A stretch of 4,964 nucleotides of DNA, taken from the IMG/VR virus record IMGVR_UViG_2778261179_000003. One strand, 5' to 3'. The stretch comes from a virus (lineage: Duplodnaviria > Heunggongvirae > Uroviricota > Caudoviricetes). Below are positions 1 through 4,964 of the stretch, piece by piece (the stretch's first letter is position 1; each line of letters starts with the position of its first letter). The position numbers were made by a program, and so were the translations under genes. The notes beneath the pieces are model-generated. The model had not been told where the DNA came from and made no database searches. It was given only the letters and a program-made list of their open reading frames with translations.

Positions 1-71
1 CCGTTCATTTTACGGATTGCTTTCGTCGCGTCGCTGATAACGAGAATATCGTCTTTAAGGTCGCGGTCTGA
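1..71 (-). other. Predicted start of a C-terminal intramolecular chaperone / self-cleaving peptidase S74-type domain of the tail fibre (continues beyond the window)
   Basis: In the stf frame, codons at 71..54 read S-D-R-D-L-K followed by DDILVISDATKAIRKMN. This gives a Ser and a Lys five residues apart inside an SDxxLKxxI-type motif, which matches my recollection of the catalytic Ser-Lys dyad signature at the start of endosialidase-chaperone (S74) domains in phage tail fibres and tailspikes. Recognition is from memory only. Confidence 0.45.
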
Positions 72-3000
72 TGACTGATTCAGCGTTGTGCAATTAATAG
101 CGCCATTTACATCAAACAACTGGCCTGCTGATGTTTTTTGCGCATAAAACAGATACGCAGCAGACGTTCCAACCTCAAAAACGTTTTGTCGATCACTTGA
201 TCCCCATACTTTTGCGGCAAATGATAGTTCTGTATTACCTAAGTTCTGTAAAATAAAACGATTGCCAGTCCCTGTTTGTTTTGTAAGGGTTAAATCAACA
301 GTTGAGTTAACCTCATCCTTGTTGATAGTGAGCGCCTGCGCTTTAGCCCCGTTAACAGCACCTGTTTTGAGTTGAACCGCGCCGTCATTACCATTTAGCA
401 GTATCTCAGCTCCGCTAAAGAAATTTTTTAGCGACAGCATCTTACTTACGCCGACTGATGAACCCAACGCCCACGCGAGAGAATTACCGGTGCTATCAAA
501 CCCACGTACAAAGCAATCCATTTTGCTATAGTCTGACGTGCTTCCAAGGACATCAATTCGCCCTCCGCCAGATTTTACCGGGTTAGATGTGGTTAATGAC
601 CTGACAGCAAGATCGGTAGATGAATTGAGATCGTCTACTGTTAATAGTCGTTTCCATCCCTTATCAACCCCAGCCTCAAAGCTTCTTGCCCAAAATTTGG
701 AGTTGCGACCGGCGAATTGTGTGACGTAATTACCGCTAAATTGAGCATGGAACCCGCCAACAACCATTGTTCCGTCAGGACCGCCTGCGCTCCCTGCTAT
801 TGGCTTAAACTTATTTACATTCTCTGTATGTTGAGTGCTCCAGTTTTGCCCTGTGTGAACAACCAATCCCTGATAAGAACTGAAGGTACCATCAAGGTTA
901 AAATTAAAGAACTTGCTGTTCCCTGAATTATTTATGTCCCTGACAACAATTTCACCAGAAGCGTTAGCGGCCCTTAGTTCAGTTTGATCGACAACCGGAC
1001 CGCCTTCGGATTGTAATCTTTGAGAAACAAATGTTCTGTTTGAAACTTCCGTACCATACGCGGTGAAAGATTGTGTTGCTTTAATCTGACCATTGTTTAC
1101 AAATATAGGAATAGTGACGGTAAAATTTTTGTCAAAACTCAGGCCATTTGTTAATGCAATCCTTTCTGACACCCCTTGTCTGAACGGAAGGTTGCTGTAG
1201 AAGCCATGTTCACCGCCAGTGAAGTCAAGAACATTTTTAACAAAGTTCTTGTCGTTATCCTCCGTTGACGTTGATACACCAAACTTATATCTAACCCCGT
1301 TGTCACCAATTACGTAGTCTTCTGTTGGTACAGTAACTCGCGCTTTAAAGCCTGTTTGCAATAATATCGGGAAAGCGGATTTATGGATATAGAACGCTAC
1401 ATATTGCTGGTAATCTTTCTTCGATACTTTAAGGCAAAGTATCCCTAGCTCATTTTTGTCATAGGCAACAAATGAGCCGCAAGCTATGCCACCGCATCGA
1501 AAATATCCACTAAATGTATTGCTATTCATCGGGTCTGATGCTGAACGCCCTGCTGTTTTTATATCAATAGGACATGCCAGGTTGCCGTAACCTTCCATTG
1601 CGGATGTGTCTATTATGACAGGGTAGTATTTGCCATCCTCTGCACCTTCTGGCGCTTGCAAGGTTATAGCTTTGGTTAATCCACCCTCAGGGATTTGCAA
1701 ATTAGTTTTGGCGTCATTAAGGCTATTTGCGCCAGTGCCACCCTGGGCTAAACCTAACGGAGACCATTTTCCAGAAGAAGAATTATAAACCCCCCAATTC
1801 CCGTTTGTATGGATTTCAAGGAAACGATCACCAGTTGGGCCATATACGCGAGTTGTTGATTCATTTTGACTAAAGCGGCTTACTTCATCCTTTCTTGCGT
1901 GACGGGTCCATTGCGGGCCAGAACTTTGGCTGTAAATGTACGAATACAATGATTTTGTATCTGAACCAACAAATAGACCGGAATATCTTTTTGTTGACAC
2001 TTCTGATCTAACTATATAACCAGAAATAAGATTATCCCCGGCACTAGACGCTACTGATGGATAACCTTTCGCTGAGATGTAAATCCTGACAAATCCAATA
2101 TAACCTGATGGCTCAACAGAGATATCAGTGCAGGTCATGGCAACTTCACCAAGACCAATATTGTTACCAACAACGGATTGTGCCTGGTTGCGATAATTAA
2201 GTGCGTCCGCCGCAGATTTCGCCGCGTTTGTTTCACTGGATTTAGCATTAGTTTCGCTGGCTTTAGCGTTTGTTTCGCTGCTCTTTGCTGCTGCCTCGCT
2301 ATTTTTCGCGTTGGTTTCTGATTTTTTGGCTGCTGTCGCGGAGTTTGCCGATGCAGTTTGTGAGTCTGCTGCCGCCTGTGCGCTGTTATCCGCATTCGTC
2401 TCAGACGTTTTTGCGGCCTTCGCGGAATTTCCTGCCGCCGTTGCCGAGGAAGCGGCATTACTGGCGCTCGAGGCTGCGCTCGTTTCTGATGATTTCGCTG
2501 CCTCTTTTGAGGCCGCCGCATCCCGGGCTGAGGTGGCAGCTTCTGACGCTTTCGTGGTCGCGGTGGATGCAGAAGTGGCTGCAGATTTTTGTGACGCTGC
2601 AGCATTCGTTTCTGACGTTTTCGCCGCACCGGCACTGGTAGCCGCCGCGCTTTTTGAGGACTCTGCAGCGGCAGCACTTTTTGATGCTTCAGTAGCCTTT
2701 GTTGATGCCGTTCCTGCGCTGGAAGACGCTGACTGAGCCGACGTCGCGGCCTGCCCGGCTGATGTGCTGGCTGCACGTGCTGAGCCTGCAGCATCAGTCG
2801 CATGGGTTGCCGCCTCACGGGCTGATGTGCCGGCATCGCTGGCTGACTTCTTCGCGGCTGCCGTGTTCTGTTCCACTGCGGACGCGTTACGCGCCACCTC
2901 TTCCACCATCAGTTCAAAGCGGCGCAGTGCCTCCGGACGGGCATCATCCTCCGTCATGGCACCGAGAAAATCATTCAGCGTACCCGGTTGTGAGTCTTCA

Positions 3001-3233
3001 TACACGGTGATGATCCCGGCATGCGATGGCGGGAAGCCTTCCACCAACAGAATAACGCTGTACTGACCGTACTCAACGTCCATGCTGTAACGCCCGGCTT
3101 CATCCGGATTTTCAGATGCCACCGTGTTCACCACCACCGTGGTGCTGTTACGTTTTGCTTTCAGCTGGATTGTGCAGTTCTGTACCGGTTTACCTGCACC
3201 GTCTTTCAGTACACCTGAAATCTTTACTGCCAT
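1..3233 (-). CDS. stf: Side tail fibre protein (Stf-like), 5' end complete, 3' end truncated by the window edge; more than 1070 codons in the window
   Basis: Minus-strand ATG at 3233..3231, preceded by an in-frame stop at 3275..3273 and a G-rich stretch (GTGGGGTG, complement of 3237..3244) just upstream. Hand translation begins MAVKISGVLKDGAGKPVQNCTIQLKAKRNSTTVVVNTVASENPDEAGRYSMDVEYGQYSV..., which I recognise as the conserved N-terminus of lambda-family side tail fibres. Frame checked by codon at 3233, about 2100-2160 (IGLGEVAMTCTDISVEPSGY), about 1680-1760 (PLGLAQGGTGANSLNDAKTNLQIPEGG), about 1503-1535 (DPMNSNTFSGY) and 3-80 (NQSSDRDLKDDILVISDATKAIRKMN); no stop met in this frame. Absent from the ORF track only because there is no stop within the window. 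Positions 1-2 are a partial codon. Confidence 0.88.
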   Translation of the reverse strand, partial: MAVKISGVLKDGAGKPVQNCTIQLKAKRNSTTVVVNTVASENPDEAGRYSMDVEYGQYSVILLVEGFPPSHAGIITVYEDSQPGTLNDFLGAMTEDDARPEALRRFELMVEEVARNASAVEQNTAAAKKSASDAGTSAREAATHATDAAGSARAASTSAGQAATSAQSASSSAGTASTKATEASKSAAAAESSKSAAATSAGAAKTSETNAAASQKSAATSASTATTKASEAATSARDAAASKEAAKSSETSAASSASNAASSATAAGNSAKAAKTSETNADNSAQAAADSQTASANSATAAKKSETNAKNSEAAAKSSETNAKASETNAKSSETNAAKSAADALNYRNQAQSVVGNNIGLGEVAMTCTDISVEPSGYIGFVRIYISAKGYPSVASSAGDNLISGYIVRSEVSTKRYSGLFVGSDTKSLYSYIYSQSSGPQWTRHARKDEVSRFSQNESTTRVYGPTGDRFLEIHTNGNWGVYNSSSGKWSPLGLAQGGTGANSLNDAKTNLQIPEGGLTKAITLQAPEGAEDGKYYPVIIDTSAMEGYGNLACPIDIKTAGRSASDPMNSNTFSGYFRCGGIACGSFVAYDKNELGILCLKVSKKDYQQYVAFYIHKSAFPILLQTGFKARVTVPTEDYVIGDNGVRYKFGVSTSTEDNDKNFVKNVLDFTGGEHGFYSNLPFRQGVSERIALTNGLSFDKNFTVTIPIFVNNGQIKATQSFTAYGTEVSNRTFVSQRLQSEGGPVVDQTELRAANASGEIVVRDINNSGNSKFFNFNLDGTFSSYQGLVVHTGQNWSTQHTENVNKFKPIAGSAGGPDGTMVVGGFHAQFSGNYVTQFAGRNSKFWARSFEAGVDKGWKRLLTVDDLNSSTDLAVRSLTTSNPVKSGGGRIDVLGSTSDYSKMDCFVRGFDSTGNSLAWALGSSVGVSKMLSLKNFFSGAEILLNGNDGAVQLKTGAVNGAKAQALTINKDEVNSTVDLTLTKQTGTGNRFILQNLGNTELSFAAKVWGSSDRQNVFEVGTSAAYLFYAQKTSAGQLFDVNGAINCTTLNQSSDRDLKDDILVISDATKAIRKMN
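2200..2890 (-). repeat. Low-complexity, G+C-rich Ala/Ser/Thr/Lys/Glu/Asn-rich coding region within stf (predicted fibre shaft)
   Basis: Hand translation of the stf frame here is dominated by motifs such as AAKTSETNA, SAATSASTATTKASEAATSA and KSSETNAKASETNAKSSETNAAKS. The GCN-rich composition also generates the long spurious ORFs seen in other frames and on the plus strand in this interval. Confidence 0.75.
2226..2288 (-). repeat. Three tandem imperfect 21-nt repeats, in frame with stf, encoding heptads AKSSETN / AKASETN / AKSSETN
   Basis: Plus strand: gtttgtttcactggatttagc (2226..2246), attagtttcgctggctttagc (2247..2267), gtttgtttcgctgctctttgc (2268..2288). The reverse complement of each unit translates in the stf frame to a 7-residue unit. 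Confidence 0.7.
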
Positions 3234-3244
3234 ATTCACCCCAC

Positions 3245-3271
3245 AAAAAAGCCCGCCTGAACCGGCGGGCT
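3245..3271 (-). terminator. Rho-independent terminator downstream of lom, immediately upstream of the stf start
   Basis: Plus-strand GCCCGCC (3251..3257), 6-nt loop, GGCGGGC (3264..3270), a perfect inverted repeat; on the minus-strand transcript the hairpin is followed directly by a U6 tract (complement of A-run 3245..3250). About 27 nt downstream of the lom stop. Confidence 0.6.
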
Positions 3272-3297
3272 GTCATAACACTGTGTTACCTGGCTAA

Positions 3298-3897
3298 TCA
3301 GAACTTATAACCGACACCCACGATGAAACCGTCAGTGCGCCAGTCGCCACTGCCGGAGCCTTCATAAGCAATATCAATGGCCACGGATTCGGTCGGGTTA
3401 AACTGCACGCCAGCCCCCCACGCCAGAGACGTGTTGCTGCGGCGACCGTCATCACTTCCGGTCAGCACTTCGTGCGTTTTCCCCTTGTTGTCAGTTACGC
3501 GGAGATAATCCCCGGAGAAAGTCGAAATACGGCTGTAAGCCACACCCGCCATCGCATACGCGCTGAACCATTCATTCACGCGCACAGACGGCCCCGCCAT
3601 CACGCTGAACCAGCGGTTACGCACGGAATCTTCATGCCAGCGGGTATCGCTGTAATGAGTCAGCTGGCGATTCTTGTCTTCTGCATAGCTGAATGACGTC
3701 ACCATCCCCAGCGTGTCCGTAAACTCATAACGGTATTTCACGTTAATCCCGTTAAGATCATCGCTGCCGGGAACGTTCGTCGAGGCATGAAGATACCCCG
3801 CGCTCAGCGAGGACTGATGTTCAGACGCCCATGCAGGCGCACCGGATACGACCAGACAGATGGCTGCGGACAAAATGGCTGCACAAACTTTACGCAT
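3298..3897 (-). CDS. lom: Lom outer-membrane protein (Ail/Lom/OmpX family 8-stranded beta-barrel), prophage lysogenic-conversion (moron) gene
   Basis: 199-aa ORF from the track: MRKVCAAILSAAICLVVSGAPAWASEHQSSLSAGYLHASTNVPGSDDLNGINVKYRYEFTD...GFIVGVGYKF. Near-identical along its length to lambda Lom as I recall it. N-terminal signal peptide with AWA-SE cleavage-type site; C-terminal aromatic residue (F) typical of outer-membrane beta-barrels. Shine-Dalgarno-like GAGAGG (complement of 3903..3908) 5 nt upstream of the ATG. Confidence 0.93.
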   Translation of the reverse strand: MRKVCAAILSAAICLVVSGAPAWASEHQSSLSAGYLHASTNVPGSDDLNGINVKYRYEFTDTLGMVTSFSYAEDKNRQLTHYSDTRWHEDSVRNRWFSVMAGPSVRVNEWFSAYAMAGVAYSRISTFSGDYLRVTDNKGKTHEVLTGSDDGRRSNTSLAWGAGVQFNPTESVAIDIAYEGSGSGDWRTDGFIVGVGYKF

Positions 3898-3902
3898 AAT
3901 TA

Positions 3903-3908
3903 CCTCTC
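3903..3908 (-). promoter_or_regulatory. Shine-Dalgarno-like ribosome-binding site for lom
   Basis: Minus-strand GAGAGG, 5-nt spacer, then ATG at 3897..3895. Confidence 0.5.
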
Positions 3909-3921
3909 GCTTTTCTGCAAT

Positions 3922-3945
3922 AAAAAAGGCGTCATTCCTGACGCC
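3922..3945 (-). terminator. Rho-independent terminator downstream of J, upstream of lom
   Basis: Plus-strand GGCGTCA (3928..3934), loop TTCC, TGACGCC (3939..3945), a perfect 7-bp inverted repeat; on the minus-strand transcript it is followed by U6 (complement of A-run 3922..3927). Lies 22 nt downstream of the J stop. The plus-strand side has an interrupted T-run (CTTTATT), so weak bidirectional activity is possible. Confidence 0.55.
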
Positions 3946-3967
3946 CTTTATTGGGGTTATAACAATT

Positions 3968-4964
3968 TCAACGAATACTGATGCCGGAAGCAGCCTTTTT
4001 GGTCACAATCACCGTACAGTCGGTGATATTGCCTGCCCCCTGATTGCCTTTCTGGAAAATCTTAAACTCCAGAGTGACGCTTCCCCTGCCACTCGGCATA
4101 TCAATAACCGCACTGTAACTACCGGGAATGGCCCCTTTAGTTTCTCTGGATGCGATTAATACGCCGTTTTTGCGAACTTCAAAACCATACCCCGTGTACC
4201 TTGTACCTCCCGGGTTATCACCACTTCCCGGATCGTCATACGCTATACCGTTAAAGATAATGGGCGGAATAATGATTTGACGGTCAAAGTTATGATCATC
4301 GCTGATGGTGACTGTAACCGTCCCGTCTGGTGTTTCCGTGTTACCCCACGTACCAGCCTTTTTCGGGAATGATTTGGATACTGTTTTAACAAAATCACCT
4401 CTGACCTGATTCGCCTCCAGCATGCCCTTAATCGTACAGTTTTCATTTATCGTGACGTTGTTGAGCGTCCCGGAGTTCGCATTCACACTGCCACTGATAT
4501 CCGCATTTTTAGCGGTCAGCTTTCCGTCCGGTGTCAGGGAAAATACCGGTGGATTTCCACCACTGGTAATGGTGGGGGCCGTCAGGCGTTTGAGGAACAC
4601 GTCGTTCATGAATATCTGGTTGCCCTGCGCCACAAACATCGGCGTTTCATTCCCGTTTGCCGGGTCAATAAACGCGATACGATTGGCGGCAACCAGAAAC
4701 TGGCTCAGTTTGCCTTCCTCTGTATCCTCCATGCTGAGGCCAAGCCCCGCGACATAATGCTTACCGTCTTCGGTCTGCTCAATTTTGACGCCCCACATGG
4801 CATTCCATTTATCGTTGGCGTCTTTCCACTCTTTCGAAAACTCATCCAGTCTGCTGGCGTTATCCTCCGTCAGGTCGACTTTTTCCAGCAGCTCCTTGCC
4901 GAGATGGGATTCGGTTATCTGGCCTTTGAAAAAATCCAGGTAACCTTCCGCATCATCGCTCGCC
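3968..4964 (-). CDS. J: Host specificity protein J / central tail fibre, C-terminal part (5' end outside window), including the receptor-binding C-terminal domain
   Basis: ORF-track entry 3968..4798 starts at an internal Met; the same frame stays open upstream to the window edge (hand translation of 4799..4963: [55 protein letters not shown], then [84 protein letters not shown]...). This is closely similar to the C-terminal region of lambda J as I recall it; the last roughly 150 residues are clearly more divergent. Position 4964 is a partial codon. Confidence 0.92.

What the first reader, a model, noticed from the sequence alone, without database searches (positions are those of the whole stretch)
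1..3233. Mosaic side tail fibre with a compositional break at about 2150-2200
The N-terminal third (3233 to about 2200) is G+C-rich and, by my recollection, lambda-Stf-like, comprising the tail-attachment N-terminus and an Ala/Ser/Thr-rich shaft. Below about 2150 the same open frame becomes visibly A+T-richer and encodes sequence with no resemblance to the lambda Stf distal part. A sharp change in base composition inside one continuous ORF is the usual footprint of modular exchange of receptor-binding regions between phages, possibly from a lower-G+C donor.
Basis: partly seen in the sequence, partly recalled or inferred. Interest (0 to 1): 0.55.

Follow-up and report, generated by a model that had tools for sequence, protein, structure and literature searches.

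The report
Chimeric lambda-type prophage side tail fibre
This is an ordinary, already catalogued E. coli prophage side tail fibre gene: a lambda-type attachment end and shaft joined to a host-recognition end of the kind carried by T5-like and Nonagvirus phages.

Summary
The window is a 4,964-bp E. coli contig carrying, on the minus strand, the end of J, lom, and the first 1,077 codons of a side tail fibre gene (stf, 3233..1).

The compositional break is real. G+C is 0.58 in codons 1-302 and 0.43 after. GC3 falls from 0.54 to 0.37 (0 of 1,000 permutations reach the observed value). It sits at about 2330-2390, not 2150-2200, and part of it comes from the Ala/Ser/Thr-rich shaft (GC2 0.81).

The synonymous-site change point (2372) coincides with the homology break at 2392-2398. 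Lambda and most E. coli prophage stf genes stop matching there.

Beyond that point the gene resembles lateral fibres of virulent phages. DNA identity over 46-1745 is 86% to Nonagvirus FritzHoffmann and 78% to T5-like slur09. The window ends 23 residues into an S74 self-cleaving chaperone domain (Ser1055/Lys1060 align with T5 pb1 Ser1264/Lys1269).

Full-length relatives (mEp460, Ayreon, E. coli C8) keep a remnant of tfa just downstream, which looks like the scar of the replacement.

Interest is low.

The parts
1..3233 (-). stf, side tail fibre gene. It starts at the ATG at 3233-3231 and is cut by the contig end after 1,077 codons. Full-length relatives are 1,202-1,204 aa.
   Evidence: Translation. 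The identical protein is on record as a partial E. coli protein on a 4,964-bp contig (P0001). Relatives: mEp460 gp20 at 87% aa identity and E. coli C8 WP_073533751 at 95%.
2832..3233 (-). Module A1: N-terminal tail-attachment domain (aa 1-134).
   Evidence: Pfam PF08400 phage_tail_N, E = 4.1e-71. Residues 1-94 are 92.6% identical to lambda Stf residues resolved on the Ur-lambda tail in PDB 9e7m (PMC12617516). GC3 is 0.60.
2394..2831 (-). Module A2: lambda-type Ala/Ser/Thr-rich shaft (aa 135-280).
   Evidence: 81.5% aa identity to lambda orf-401. It belongs to the 2392-3425 block that is 86.6% identical to lambda DNA. GC2 is 0.81 and GC3 0.47.
2392..2398 (.). Main recombination joint: the end of the ubiquitous lambdoid N-terminal module.
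   Evidence: Lambda homology ends at 2392. Most phage hits start at 2392-2398. In 60 E. coli records sampled evenly down the ranking, 41 matches start at 2392-2398 (38 of them spanning 2392/2395/2398-3233), including stfR of K-12-type strains. The GC3 change point is at 2372.
2172..2393 (-). Module B: non-lambda end of the shaft (aa 281-354), with SETNAK-type repeats ending in ...ALNYRNQAQS.
   Evidence: Shared with mEp460 (part of its 97% block, 2091-4964) and with Ayreon down to 2260. T5 ltf matches 2262-2399 at 78% DNA identity, and the C8 relative's shaft aa 234-331, which spans the A2/B joint, is 77% identical to T5 pb1. There is a 21-nt tandem repeat at 2230-2280.
1746..2171 (-). Module C: small all-beta domain (aa 355-496). 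Its DNA from 1746 to 2090 is a divergent allele.
1689..1760 (-). Conserved hinge motif (W)xPLxxxxGGTGAN..DAKTNLQIPEGG (aa 492-515), which lies on the border between modules C and D.
   Evidence: P492, L493 and G498-G501 are invariant in 24 aligned fibres. Relatives with extra inserted domains have one copy of the motif after each insertion (alignment A2). DNA homology to mEp460, FritzHoffmann and slur09 resumes at 1745.
72..1745 (-). Module D: distal cassette (aa 497-1054), the presumed receptor-binding end of the mature fibre.
   Evidence: DNA identity is 93.3% to mEp460 over 1-1745, and over 46-1745 it is 86.3% to FritzHoffmann (Nonagvirus) and 78.0% to slur09, whose gene sits next to the collar protein for L-shaped fibre attachment. 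phrog_6578 matches at E = 1.6e-281. GC3 is 0.35-0.38 in all carriers. No Pfam, NCBIfam or PDB sequence match for this module itself; the only weak PDB hit touching its last residues (6f45, from about aa 1034) belongs to the approach to the S74 cleavage site.
3..71 (-). First 23 residues of the S74 intramolecular chaperone domain (aa 1055-1077). The Ser1055 codon is at 69-71 and the Lys1060 codon at 54-56.
   Evidence: Pfam PF13884 Peptidase_S74 begins at the equivalent residue in mEp460, and is also found in Ayreon (E = 1e-12 and 2e-12). The C8 relative's SSDRDLK, identical to the window's, aligns with T5 pb1 TSDARLK (scissile Ser1264, Lys1269) (PMC4690869).
3250..3271 (-). Intrinsic-terminator-like hairpin plus T-run between lom and stf.
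   Evidence: 8-bp stem with 7 G-C pairs, followed by TTTTTTG. The same site is annotated as a terminator in mEp460.
3298..3897 (-). lom (context gene).
   Evidence: Pfam Ail_Lom, E = 5e-123.
3968..4963 (-). C-terminal 331 codons of the tail tip protein J (context gene).
   Evidence: Pfam Phage_Tail_Tip and Ig_GpJ_C. 99.4% aa identity to mEp460 J and 66% to lambda J.

Best explanation
The gene encodes a chimeric side tail fibre of a lambdoid (mEp460-like) E. coli prophage, built from exchangeable blocks.

Build. Residues 1-280 are the standard lambda-type module: an anchor domain that docks on the tail tip, followed by an Ala/Ser/Thr-rich shaft. From window 2392-2398 onward the gene belongs to a different pool. 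It has a T5-pb1-like shaft end, a small beta 'knob', a roughly 560-residue distal cassette, and a C-terminal S74 intramolecular chaperone. This pool is shared with lateral fibres of virulent T5-like and Nonagvirus phages.

Origin (inferred). Homologous recombination within the repetitive shaft, which lambda Stf and T5 pb1 share at about 78% DNA identity, replaced the original distal stf together with the first ~146 codons of tfa. The separate Tfa chaperone became dispensable because the incoming cassette carries its own. Later exchanges at short invariant motifs reshuffled the knob and parts of the distal cassette.

Function (inferred from T5 pb1 and K1F endosialidase). The chaperone drives trimer folding, then cleaves itself off at Ser1055. 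This exposes the tip, which binds a surface glycan, most likely an O-antigen or another LPS structure, for reversible first adsorption. J provides the irreversible receptor step.
For: Shown:
- The composition break survives control for amino-acid content.
- The homology break at 2392-2398 recurs in lambda, most lambdoid phages and 41 of the 60 evenly sampled E. coli records. The N-module is present in 4,897 of 5,426 genomes, the whole gene in only 85.
- The distal part matches T5-like, Queuovirinae and rV5-like phages. DNA identity over 46-1745 is 86% to FritzHoffmann and 78% to slur09.
- T5 ltf matches the shaft at 78% DNA and 77% aa identity.
- The same distal cassette sits behind at least four different N-terminal anchors.
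- Module borders fall on invariant motifs.
- Full-length relatives carry the S74 domain, and the Ser/Lys dyad aligns with T5 pb1 Ser1264/Lys1269.
- A remnant of lambda Tfa (aa 147-194, 74-81% identity) lies directly after stf in mEp460, Ayreon and C8, and none has an intact tfa there.
- Cassette GC3 is 0.35-0.38 in all carriers.
- The anchor is 92.6% identical to the Stf residues seen on the Ur-lambda tail (PMC12617516).
Against: - The direction of transfer (virulent phage to prophage) is inferred only from composition and the tfa relic. The reverse flow of the cassette is not excluded.
- The window lacks the last ~125 codons, so the S74 domain and the tfa relic are seen only in relatives that are 93-97% identical.
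- No receptor is known for any member of the family. The hosts recorded for FritzHoffmann (E. coli K-12, no O-antigen) give no information about the fibre's ligand.
- The monomer AF2 model of aa 351-1077 was poor (pLDDT 42), so the fold of the distal tip is unknown.
- Shaft versus distal synonymous composition differs only weakly (p = 0.034).
Confidence: 0.88

Rival explanations
1. No exchange took place. The G+C change merely reflects amino-acid composition: an Ala/Ser/Thr-rich shaft followed by an ordinary beta-rich domain within a vertically inherited gene.
For: GC2 is 0.81 in the shaft and 0.44 distally. The all-base change point (2327) lies inside the shaft's compositional decline. Shaft versus distal synonymous usage differs only weakly (OR 1.49, p = 0.034).
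Against: With amino acids held fixed, G/C-ending codons are still twice as likely in aa 1-280 (p = 2.7e-6). The GC3 change point at 2372 coincides with a homology break used by most sampled E. coli prophage stf genes. The distal part is 86% identical in DNA to a virulent Nonagvirus. A tfa relic lies downstream in relatives.
Confidence: 0.03
2. The exchange is real, but the flow ran the other way. The S74 cassette is native to E. coli prophages, and virulent T5-like and Nonagvirus phages picked it up from prophages during infection.
For: The cassette is abundant in E. coli genomes: clusters with hundreds to more than a thousand members, and 85 complete genomes carry the whole gene. The type-1 knob allele is found only in prophages and in no phage record. 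Cassette GC3 (0.35-0.38) is higher than the rest of the slur09 fibre gene (0.11 in its shaft, 0.29 overall).
Against: The tfa remnant shows that in lambdoids the S74 cassette displaced an older stf-tfa arrangement. Cassette G+C of 0.42-0.44 fits genomes of 40-43% G+C better than lambdoid 50-51%. S74-type fibres are widespread among virulent phages. Flow in both directions is possible and would not change the mosaic conclusion.
Confidence: 0.08
3. The window's gene is a decayed, non-functional remnant of a cryptic prophage, so the mosaic has no present function.
For: The contig is only 4,964 bp and stops inside the gene. Related E. coli proteins include obvious deletion fusions (J C-terminus fused to the S74 fibre, P0116 and P0118).
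Against: The frame is open for all 1,077 codons. The gene is 93-97% identical to that of the plaque-forming phage mEp460. Invariant motifs and the Ser/Lys dyad are intact. The contig end most likely reflects assembly breaking in repeated prophage sequence.
Confidence: 0.1

Closest known systems
Side tail fibre of phage mEp460 (NC_019716 gp20, YP_007112094); the PGAP product class 'prophage tail fiber N-terminal domain and S74 family endopeptidase-containing protein'; phrog_6578
   Same: Same gene order (J, lom, terminator, stf). Same architecture end to end, with 87% aa identity. DNA identity is 97% over 2091-4964 and 93% over 1-1745.
   Different: The knob block at 1746-2090 is a different allele (35-55% aa identity), shared instead with E. 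coli C8 and about 136 E. coli genomes. There are further small patchwise differences within the distal cassette.
Bacteriophage lambda Stf (orf-401 + orf-314 in lambda PaPa, intact in Ur-lambda) with its chaperone Tfa
   Same: The anchor domain (93% identity over aa 1-94) and shaft to aa 280. Position after lom. Presumed role as an accessory fibre for reversible adsorption (PMC12617516).
   Different: The distal half is unrelated: lambda's is gp37-like and binds OmpC. Lambda needs the separate Tfa chaperone. Here an S74 intramolecular chaperone replaces it, and only a 45-48-codon tfa relic remains in relatives.
T5 L-shaped tail fibre pb1 (Ltf) and T5-like lateral fibres such as that of slur09
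   Same: SETNAK-type shaft (77% aa and 78% DNA identity to T5). C-terminal S74 chaperone with the Ser...Lys (i, i+5) dyad. The slur09 fibre shares the distal cassette at 78% DNA identity and 78% aa identity over the aligned cassette (PMC4690869).
   Different: The N-terminal anchor is different, because T5 fibres attach through a collar protein. T5's own bullet-shaped polymannose-binding tip shows no sequence similarity to this distal cassette.
Lateral tail fibre of Nonagvirus FritzHoffmann (Bas20, QXV79286)
   Same: PF08400-type anchor, S74 end, and the distal cassette at 86% DNA identity and up to 100% aa identity in 40-residue windows.
   Different: The anchor is only about 31% identical, the shaft is much shorter, and the knob is the other allele. 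The phage is virulent with a 7-deazaguanine-modified genome (PMC8594841).

Membership tests
Lambda-type side tail fibre (Stf; Pfam phage_tail_N family) | N-terminal PF08400 domain that docks on the tail tip | tested here: met
   PF08400 at E = 4.1e-71 over aa 1-134. 92.6% identity to lambda Stf 1-94, resolved in PDB 9e7m.
Lambda-type side tail fibre (Stf; Pfam phage_tail_N family) | Genomic position directly downstream of J and lom in a lambdoid tail module | tested here: met
   J C-terminus at 3968-4963, lom at 3298-3897, stf from 3233, all on the minus strand. The order is the same in lambda and mEp460.
Lambda-type side tail fibre (Stf; Pfam phage_tail_N family) | gp37-like distal receptor-binding region folded with a separate Tfa chaperone | tested here: not met
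   No similarity to lambda orf-314 beyond the low-complexity shaft. Relatives have only a tfa C-terminal relic. The gene is therefore a member by its anchor and shaft only.
S74 intramolecular-chaperone fibres and spikes (K1F endosialidase, T5 pb1 type) | C-terminal Peptidase_S74 (PF13884) domain | tested here: inconclusive
   The window stops 23 residues into the domain, so Pfam does not call it on the window protein. The domain is called in mEp460 and Ayreon at E = 1e-12 and 2e-12. The C8 gene carries the PGAP S74 product name and is 96.8% identical to the window in DNA.
S74 intramolecular-chaperone fibres and spikes (K1F endosialidase, T5 pb1 type) | Scissile Ser with Lys five residues downstream | tested here: met
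   S1055-D-R-D-L-K1060 (window 71-54). The C8 relative's identical SSDRDLK aligns with T5 pb1 S1264-D-A-R-L-K1269 (PMC4690869).
S74 intramolecular-chaperone fibres and spikes (K1F endosialidase, T5 pb1 type) | Autoproteolytic release of the chaperone after trimer folding | not testable with these tools
   This needs expression of the wild type and an S1055A mutant.
T5-type L-shaped tail fibre (pb1) | Attachment through the T5 collar protein; T5-type N-terminus | tested here: not met
   The N-terminus is lambda-type PF08400. The slur09 and T5 N-termini do not align with aa 1-100.
T5-type L-shaped tail fibre (pb1) | Bullet-shaped polymannose-binding tip (pb1 970-1263) | tested here: not met
   No significant alignment between the distal cassette and T5 pb1 outside the shaft and the S74 site. 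No PDB sequence hit to 4UW7 or 4UW8.

The most novel reading that the evidence does not exclude
The small beta 'knob' (aa 355-496) could be a second, independent glycan-binding domain, making the fibre bivalent. That would resemble the dual-RBD T-shaped fibres described in the extended BASEL collection. Three observations make this possible. The window carries a type-1 allele that matches no sequenced phage at the DNA level and occurs only in about 2.5% of E. coli genomes. It has the lowest GC3 in the gene. It swaps independently of the distal tip at invariant flanking motifs. On this reading, lambdoid prophages would tune two specificities combinatorially.
Probability: 0.15. Interest if true: 0.4.

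Novelty: already known. Interest (0 to 1): 0.2.

Why it matters
The main value is as a clean worked example. Tail fibre genes have long been known to be mosaics, and this one shows the anatomy clearly:
- a universal anchor-plus-shaft module found in about 90% of complete E. coli genomes;
- a repeat-rich shaft that serves as the crossover zone between temperate and virulent phage fibres;
- cassette borders that fall on invariant motifs;
- a tfa scar that records replacement of a two-gene fibre-plus-chaperone unit by a single self-chaperoning gene.

This has practical use for people engineering lambda-based particles with swapped Stf tips, because the natural joints (aa 280, about 381, about 497) are candidate fusion points. 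It does not reveal a new kind of system.

Tried and rejected
- AF2 monomer model of aa 351-1077 with a 25-sequence alignment gave mean pLDDT 41.9. It was unusable except for aa about 364-450, so no fold can be claimed for the distal tip.
- Sequence searches of PDB, by single sequence and by profile, found nothing for aa 355-1030. J-protein hits came from J::fibre fusion rows in the alignment and were disregarded.
- NCBIfam had no family for the full-length relative.
- Pfam found nothing between aa 135 and the S74 site.
- Tandem-repeat search found only two short arrays, so the shaft is compositionally repetitive rather than a clean tandem array.
- Promoter-like sites are not enriched (3 found against 5.6 expected). 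I therefore do not propose an internal promoter at the joint.
- I considered that the G+C break is purely an amino-acid effect and rejected this on the stratified codon test and the homology map.
- A literature search for a paper describing this specific lambda-anchor/S74 chimera found none. Only general statements on lateral-fibre allelic variation and horizontal transfer turned up (PMC8594841; 10.1101/2024.09.12.612763).


Full report
**What is in the window**

All real genes lie on the minus strand. They are the last 331 codons of the tail tip protein J (4963..3968; Pfam Phage_Tail_Tip and Ig_GpJ_C), then lom (3897..3298; Ail_Lom, E = 5e-123). A terminator-like hairpin follows at 3271..3250. 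After it comes one open frame from the ATG at 3233 to the contig end, 1,077 codons long.

The identical protein is on record as a partial E. coli 'prophage tail fiber N-terminal domain-containing protein' on a contig of exactly 4,964 bp (P0001). The window is therefore a whole short contig from a draft assembly.

The closest records are phage mEp460 and a prophage of E. coli C8. mEp460 covers 91% of the window at 96.3% identity. C8 covers 100% at 96.8%.

**Checking the observation**

G+C is 0.583 for codons 1-302 and 0.434 afterwards, with a maximum-likelihood change point at window 2327. Third-position G+C falls from 0.54 to 0.37. The best change point is codon 287 (window 2372), on a plateau from 2255 to 2381, with a near-equal second optimum near 2708-2717. 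None of 1,000 permutations reached the observed likelihood ratio.

Much of the visible jump is an amino-acid effect. The Ala/Ser/Thr-rich shaft (aa 135-280) has GC2 = 0.81, against 0.44 distally.

I therefore compared G/C-ending and A/T-ending codons within each amino acid. Residues 1-280 have about twice the odds of G/C-ending codons compared with residues 351-1077 (Cochran-Mantel-Haenszel (CMH) OR 2.05, p = 2.7e-6). The synonymous shift is stepwise rather than sharp: 0.60 in the anchor, 0.47 in the shaft and 0.37 distally. The minimum, 0.29, is in aa 355-496.

So the break is real and not due to chance. The position 2150-2200 marks the end of the low-complexity shaft, not the joint.

**Homology map**

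DNA comparisons give recurrent breakpoints:
- Lambda matches 2392-3425 at 86.6% and nothing below that.
- Ayreon matches 2260-4799 and 1-605.
- mEp460 matches 2091-4964 (97.0%) and 1-1745 (93.3%), with 1746-2090 diverged.
- The virulent Nonagvirus FritzHoffmann matches 46-1745 at 86.3%.
- The T5-like slur09 matches 46-1745 at 78.0%.
- T5 ltf itself matches the shaft at 2262-2399 at 78%.

In E. coli, 4,897 of 5,426 complete genomes match some part of the gene, but only 85 hold at least 80% of it. Of 60 records sampled evenly down the ranking, 41 have matches that start at 2392, 2395 or 2398, and 38 of these run through to 3233. These include stfR of K-12-type strains.

The main joint is therefore at 2392-2398 (aa 280). 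This agrees with the GC3 change point at 2372.

**Do the two halves come from different lineages?**

Yes. The N-part matches lambdoid phages and Stx phages. tblastn with the distal 727 residues finds mEp460 (82.6%). After that the hits are FritzHoffmann (Queuovirinae, 76%), slur09 (Tequintavirus, 64%) and hundreds of T5-like, Queuovirinae and rV5-like virulent phages of Escherichia and Salmonella. In slur09 the gene lies right after the 'collar tail protein for L-shaped tail fibre attachment', so it is the T5 Ltf equivalent.

Over the aligned cassette (aa 497-1062) every carrier has nearly the same composition (GC 0.42-0.44, GC3 0.35-0.38). This is close to the local G+C of the FritzHoffmann and slur09 loci (0.43 and 0.40). 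It is far from the mEp460 locus (0.51) and from lambda J (GC3 0.68).

**Finer anatomy**

An alignment of 24 relatives (A2) shows that block borders lie on invariant motifs:
- PSGYIGF(V/M)RI at aa 375-384, where mEp460 DNA homology stops.
- GPQWTRHARK(D/N)EV.
- (W)xPLxxxxGGTGAN..DAKTNLQIPEGG at aa 490-515, where homology to mEp460, FritzHoffmann and slur09 resumes.

Relatives with extra inserted domains carry one more copy of the PL....GGTGA motif after each insertion.

The same distal cassette is found behind at least four anchors:
- lambda-type PF08400;
- Nonagvirus PF08400 (about 31% identical);
- the T5-type N-terminus;
- an 'MIYTTGTIAINGNTVTG...' N-terminus.

The block aa 355-496 comes in at least two alleles about 46-50% identical to each other. 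The window's allele has no DNA match in 50,697 phage records. It occurs in 136 E. coli genomes, in fibres with various distal ends.

**The C-terminal end and the scar**

The window ends with ...NQSSDRDLKDDILVISDATKAIRKMN. In mEp460 and Ayreon, Pfam Peptidase_S74 is called, and in mEp460 it starts at the residue equivalent to Ser1055. The C8 gene carries the PGAP S74 product name.

The C8 relative's SSDRDLK, identical to the window's, aligns with T5 pb1 TSDARLK. In pb1, Ser1264 is the scissile, catalytic serine and Lys1269 activates it. The 133-residue chaperone is released after trimer folding, and this unmasks the receptor-binding tip (PMC4690869).

None of the relatives has a tfa gene. However, directly after stf in mEp460, Ayreon and C8 there is a remnant matching lambda Tfa residues 147-194 at 74-81% identity. 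In C8 it is annotated as an incomplete pseudogene. This is the right-hand scar of an event that replaced distal stf and most of tfa with a self-chaperoning cassette.

**Mechanism**

Shown: the modular structure, the joints, the shared cassettes, the S74 motif and the tfa relic.

Inferred from lambda (PMC12617516): the anchor (92.6% identical over the 94 residues resolved on the Ur-lambda tail) docks the fibre on the tail tip.

Inferred from T5 pb1 and K1F endosialidase: the chaperone folds the trimer and cleaves itself off at Ser1055.

Inferred from the biology of lateral fibres (PMC8594841; 10.1101/2024.09.12.612763): the tip binds a surface glycan, probably an O-antigen or LPS structure, for reversible first contact. 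The receptor itself is unknown.

Inferred mechanism of exchange: homologous recombination in the shaft that lambda Stf and T5 pb1 share, and at the invariant motifs. The direction of flow, from a low-G+C virulent pool into the prophage, is likely but not proven.

**Comparison with what is known, and novelty**

The gene is a member of the lambda-type Stf family by anchor, shaft and position. It fails the family's distal/Tfa feature. It belongs to the S74 chaperone class by motif, and by domain in near-identical relatives. It is not a T5 pb1 orthologue, because both the anchor and the tip differ.

The whole architecture already exists as mEp460 gp20, as phrog_6578 (E = 1.6e-281) and as a dedicated PGAP product name. 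Mosaic tail fibres with conserved 5' ends and variable distal parts are described in the literature (PMC8594841). The finding is therefore correct but ordinary.

The modestly useful details are the precise natural joints, the lambda/T5 shaft homology as a crossover substrate, the tfa scar, and the prophage-only knob allele.

Noticed in passing
L001 3466-3600, L002 3457-3600, L004 5463-5600 (just downstream of stf in mEp460, Ayreon and E. coli C8; outside the window): A remnant of the last 45-48 codons of lambda-type tfa (lambda Tfa aa 147-194, 74-81% identity) follows the S74-type stf, and no intact tfa is present. It looks like the right-hand scar of the cassette replacement.
   Followed up: yes
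window 3968-4411 (J C-terminal receptor-binding part): The end of J is 99.4% identical to mEp460 J but only about 66% identical to lambda J. DNA homology to lambda stops at 4412. The central-fibre specificity module is therefore also non-lambda, so the receptor is probably not LamB.
   Followed up: partly
window 2135-2836 (minus strand, other frame), 2311-2736 (+), 2270-2641 (+), 2764-3066 (+): Long overlapping ORFs of 100-233 aa lie in other frames and on the opposite strand of the Ala/Ser/Thr shaft, like lambda's annotated orf206b. They are most likely stop-free artefacts of the repetitive GCN/TCN/ACN codons and not genes.
   Followed up: no
window 3250-3271 (minus strand): A strong terminator-like hairpin with a T-run sits between lom and stf. 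The same site is annotated as a terminator in mEp460, so stf expression presumably depends on antiterminated late transcription.
   Followed up: partly
proteins P0116 and P0118 (1,134 aa, E. coli): These proteins join J C-terminal domains (PF09327 + PF12421, aa 54-319) to the S74 distal fibre. They are probably deletions fusing J to stf in decaying prophages; P0118 is seen on 5 contigs.
   Followed up: partly
proteins P0008, P0012, P0086, P0089, P0094, P0096, P0064 (alignment A2): The same distal cassette is attached to a quite different N-terminus (MIYTTGTIAINGNTVTGTGTNF..., no PF08400). This implies another phage group that uses the cassette. The source phages were not identified.
   Followed up: no
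window 2230-2280: A 21-nt tandem repeat (2.4 copies, 86% matches) encodes the SETNAK(A/S) heptad of the shaft. The repeat number differs among relatives: there are indels in the shaft between the window, Ayreon and the T5-like fibres.
   Followed up: no
L005 (slur09 Ltf) and P0095, P0008, P0086, P0011 in alignment A2, columns 517-830: Some relatives carry one or two extra domains of about 100-200 aa inserted after the knob, each ending in another copy of the PLxxxxGGTGA motif. The motif appears to act as a universal cassette boundary.
   Followed up: partly
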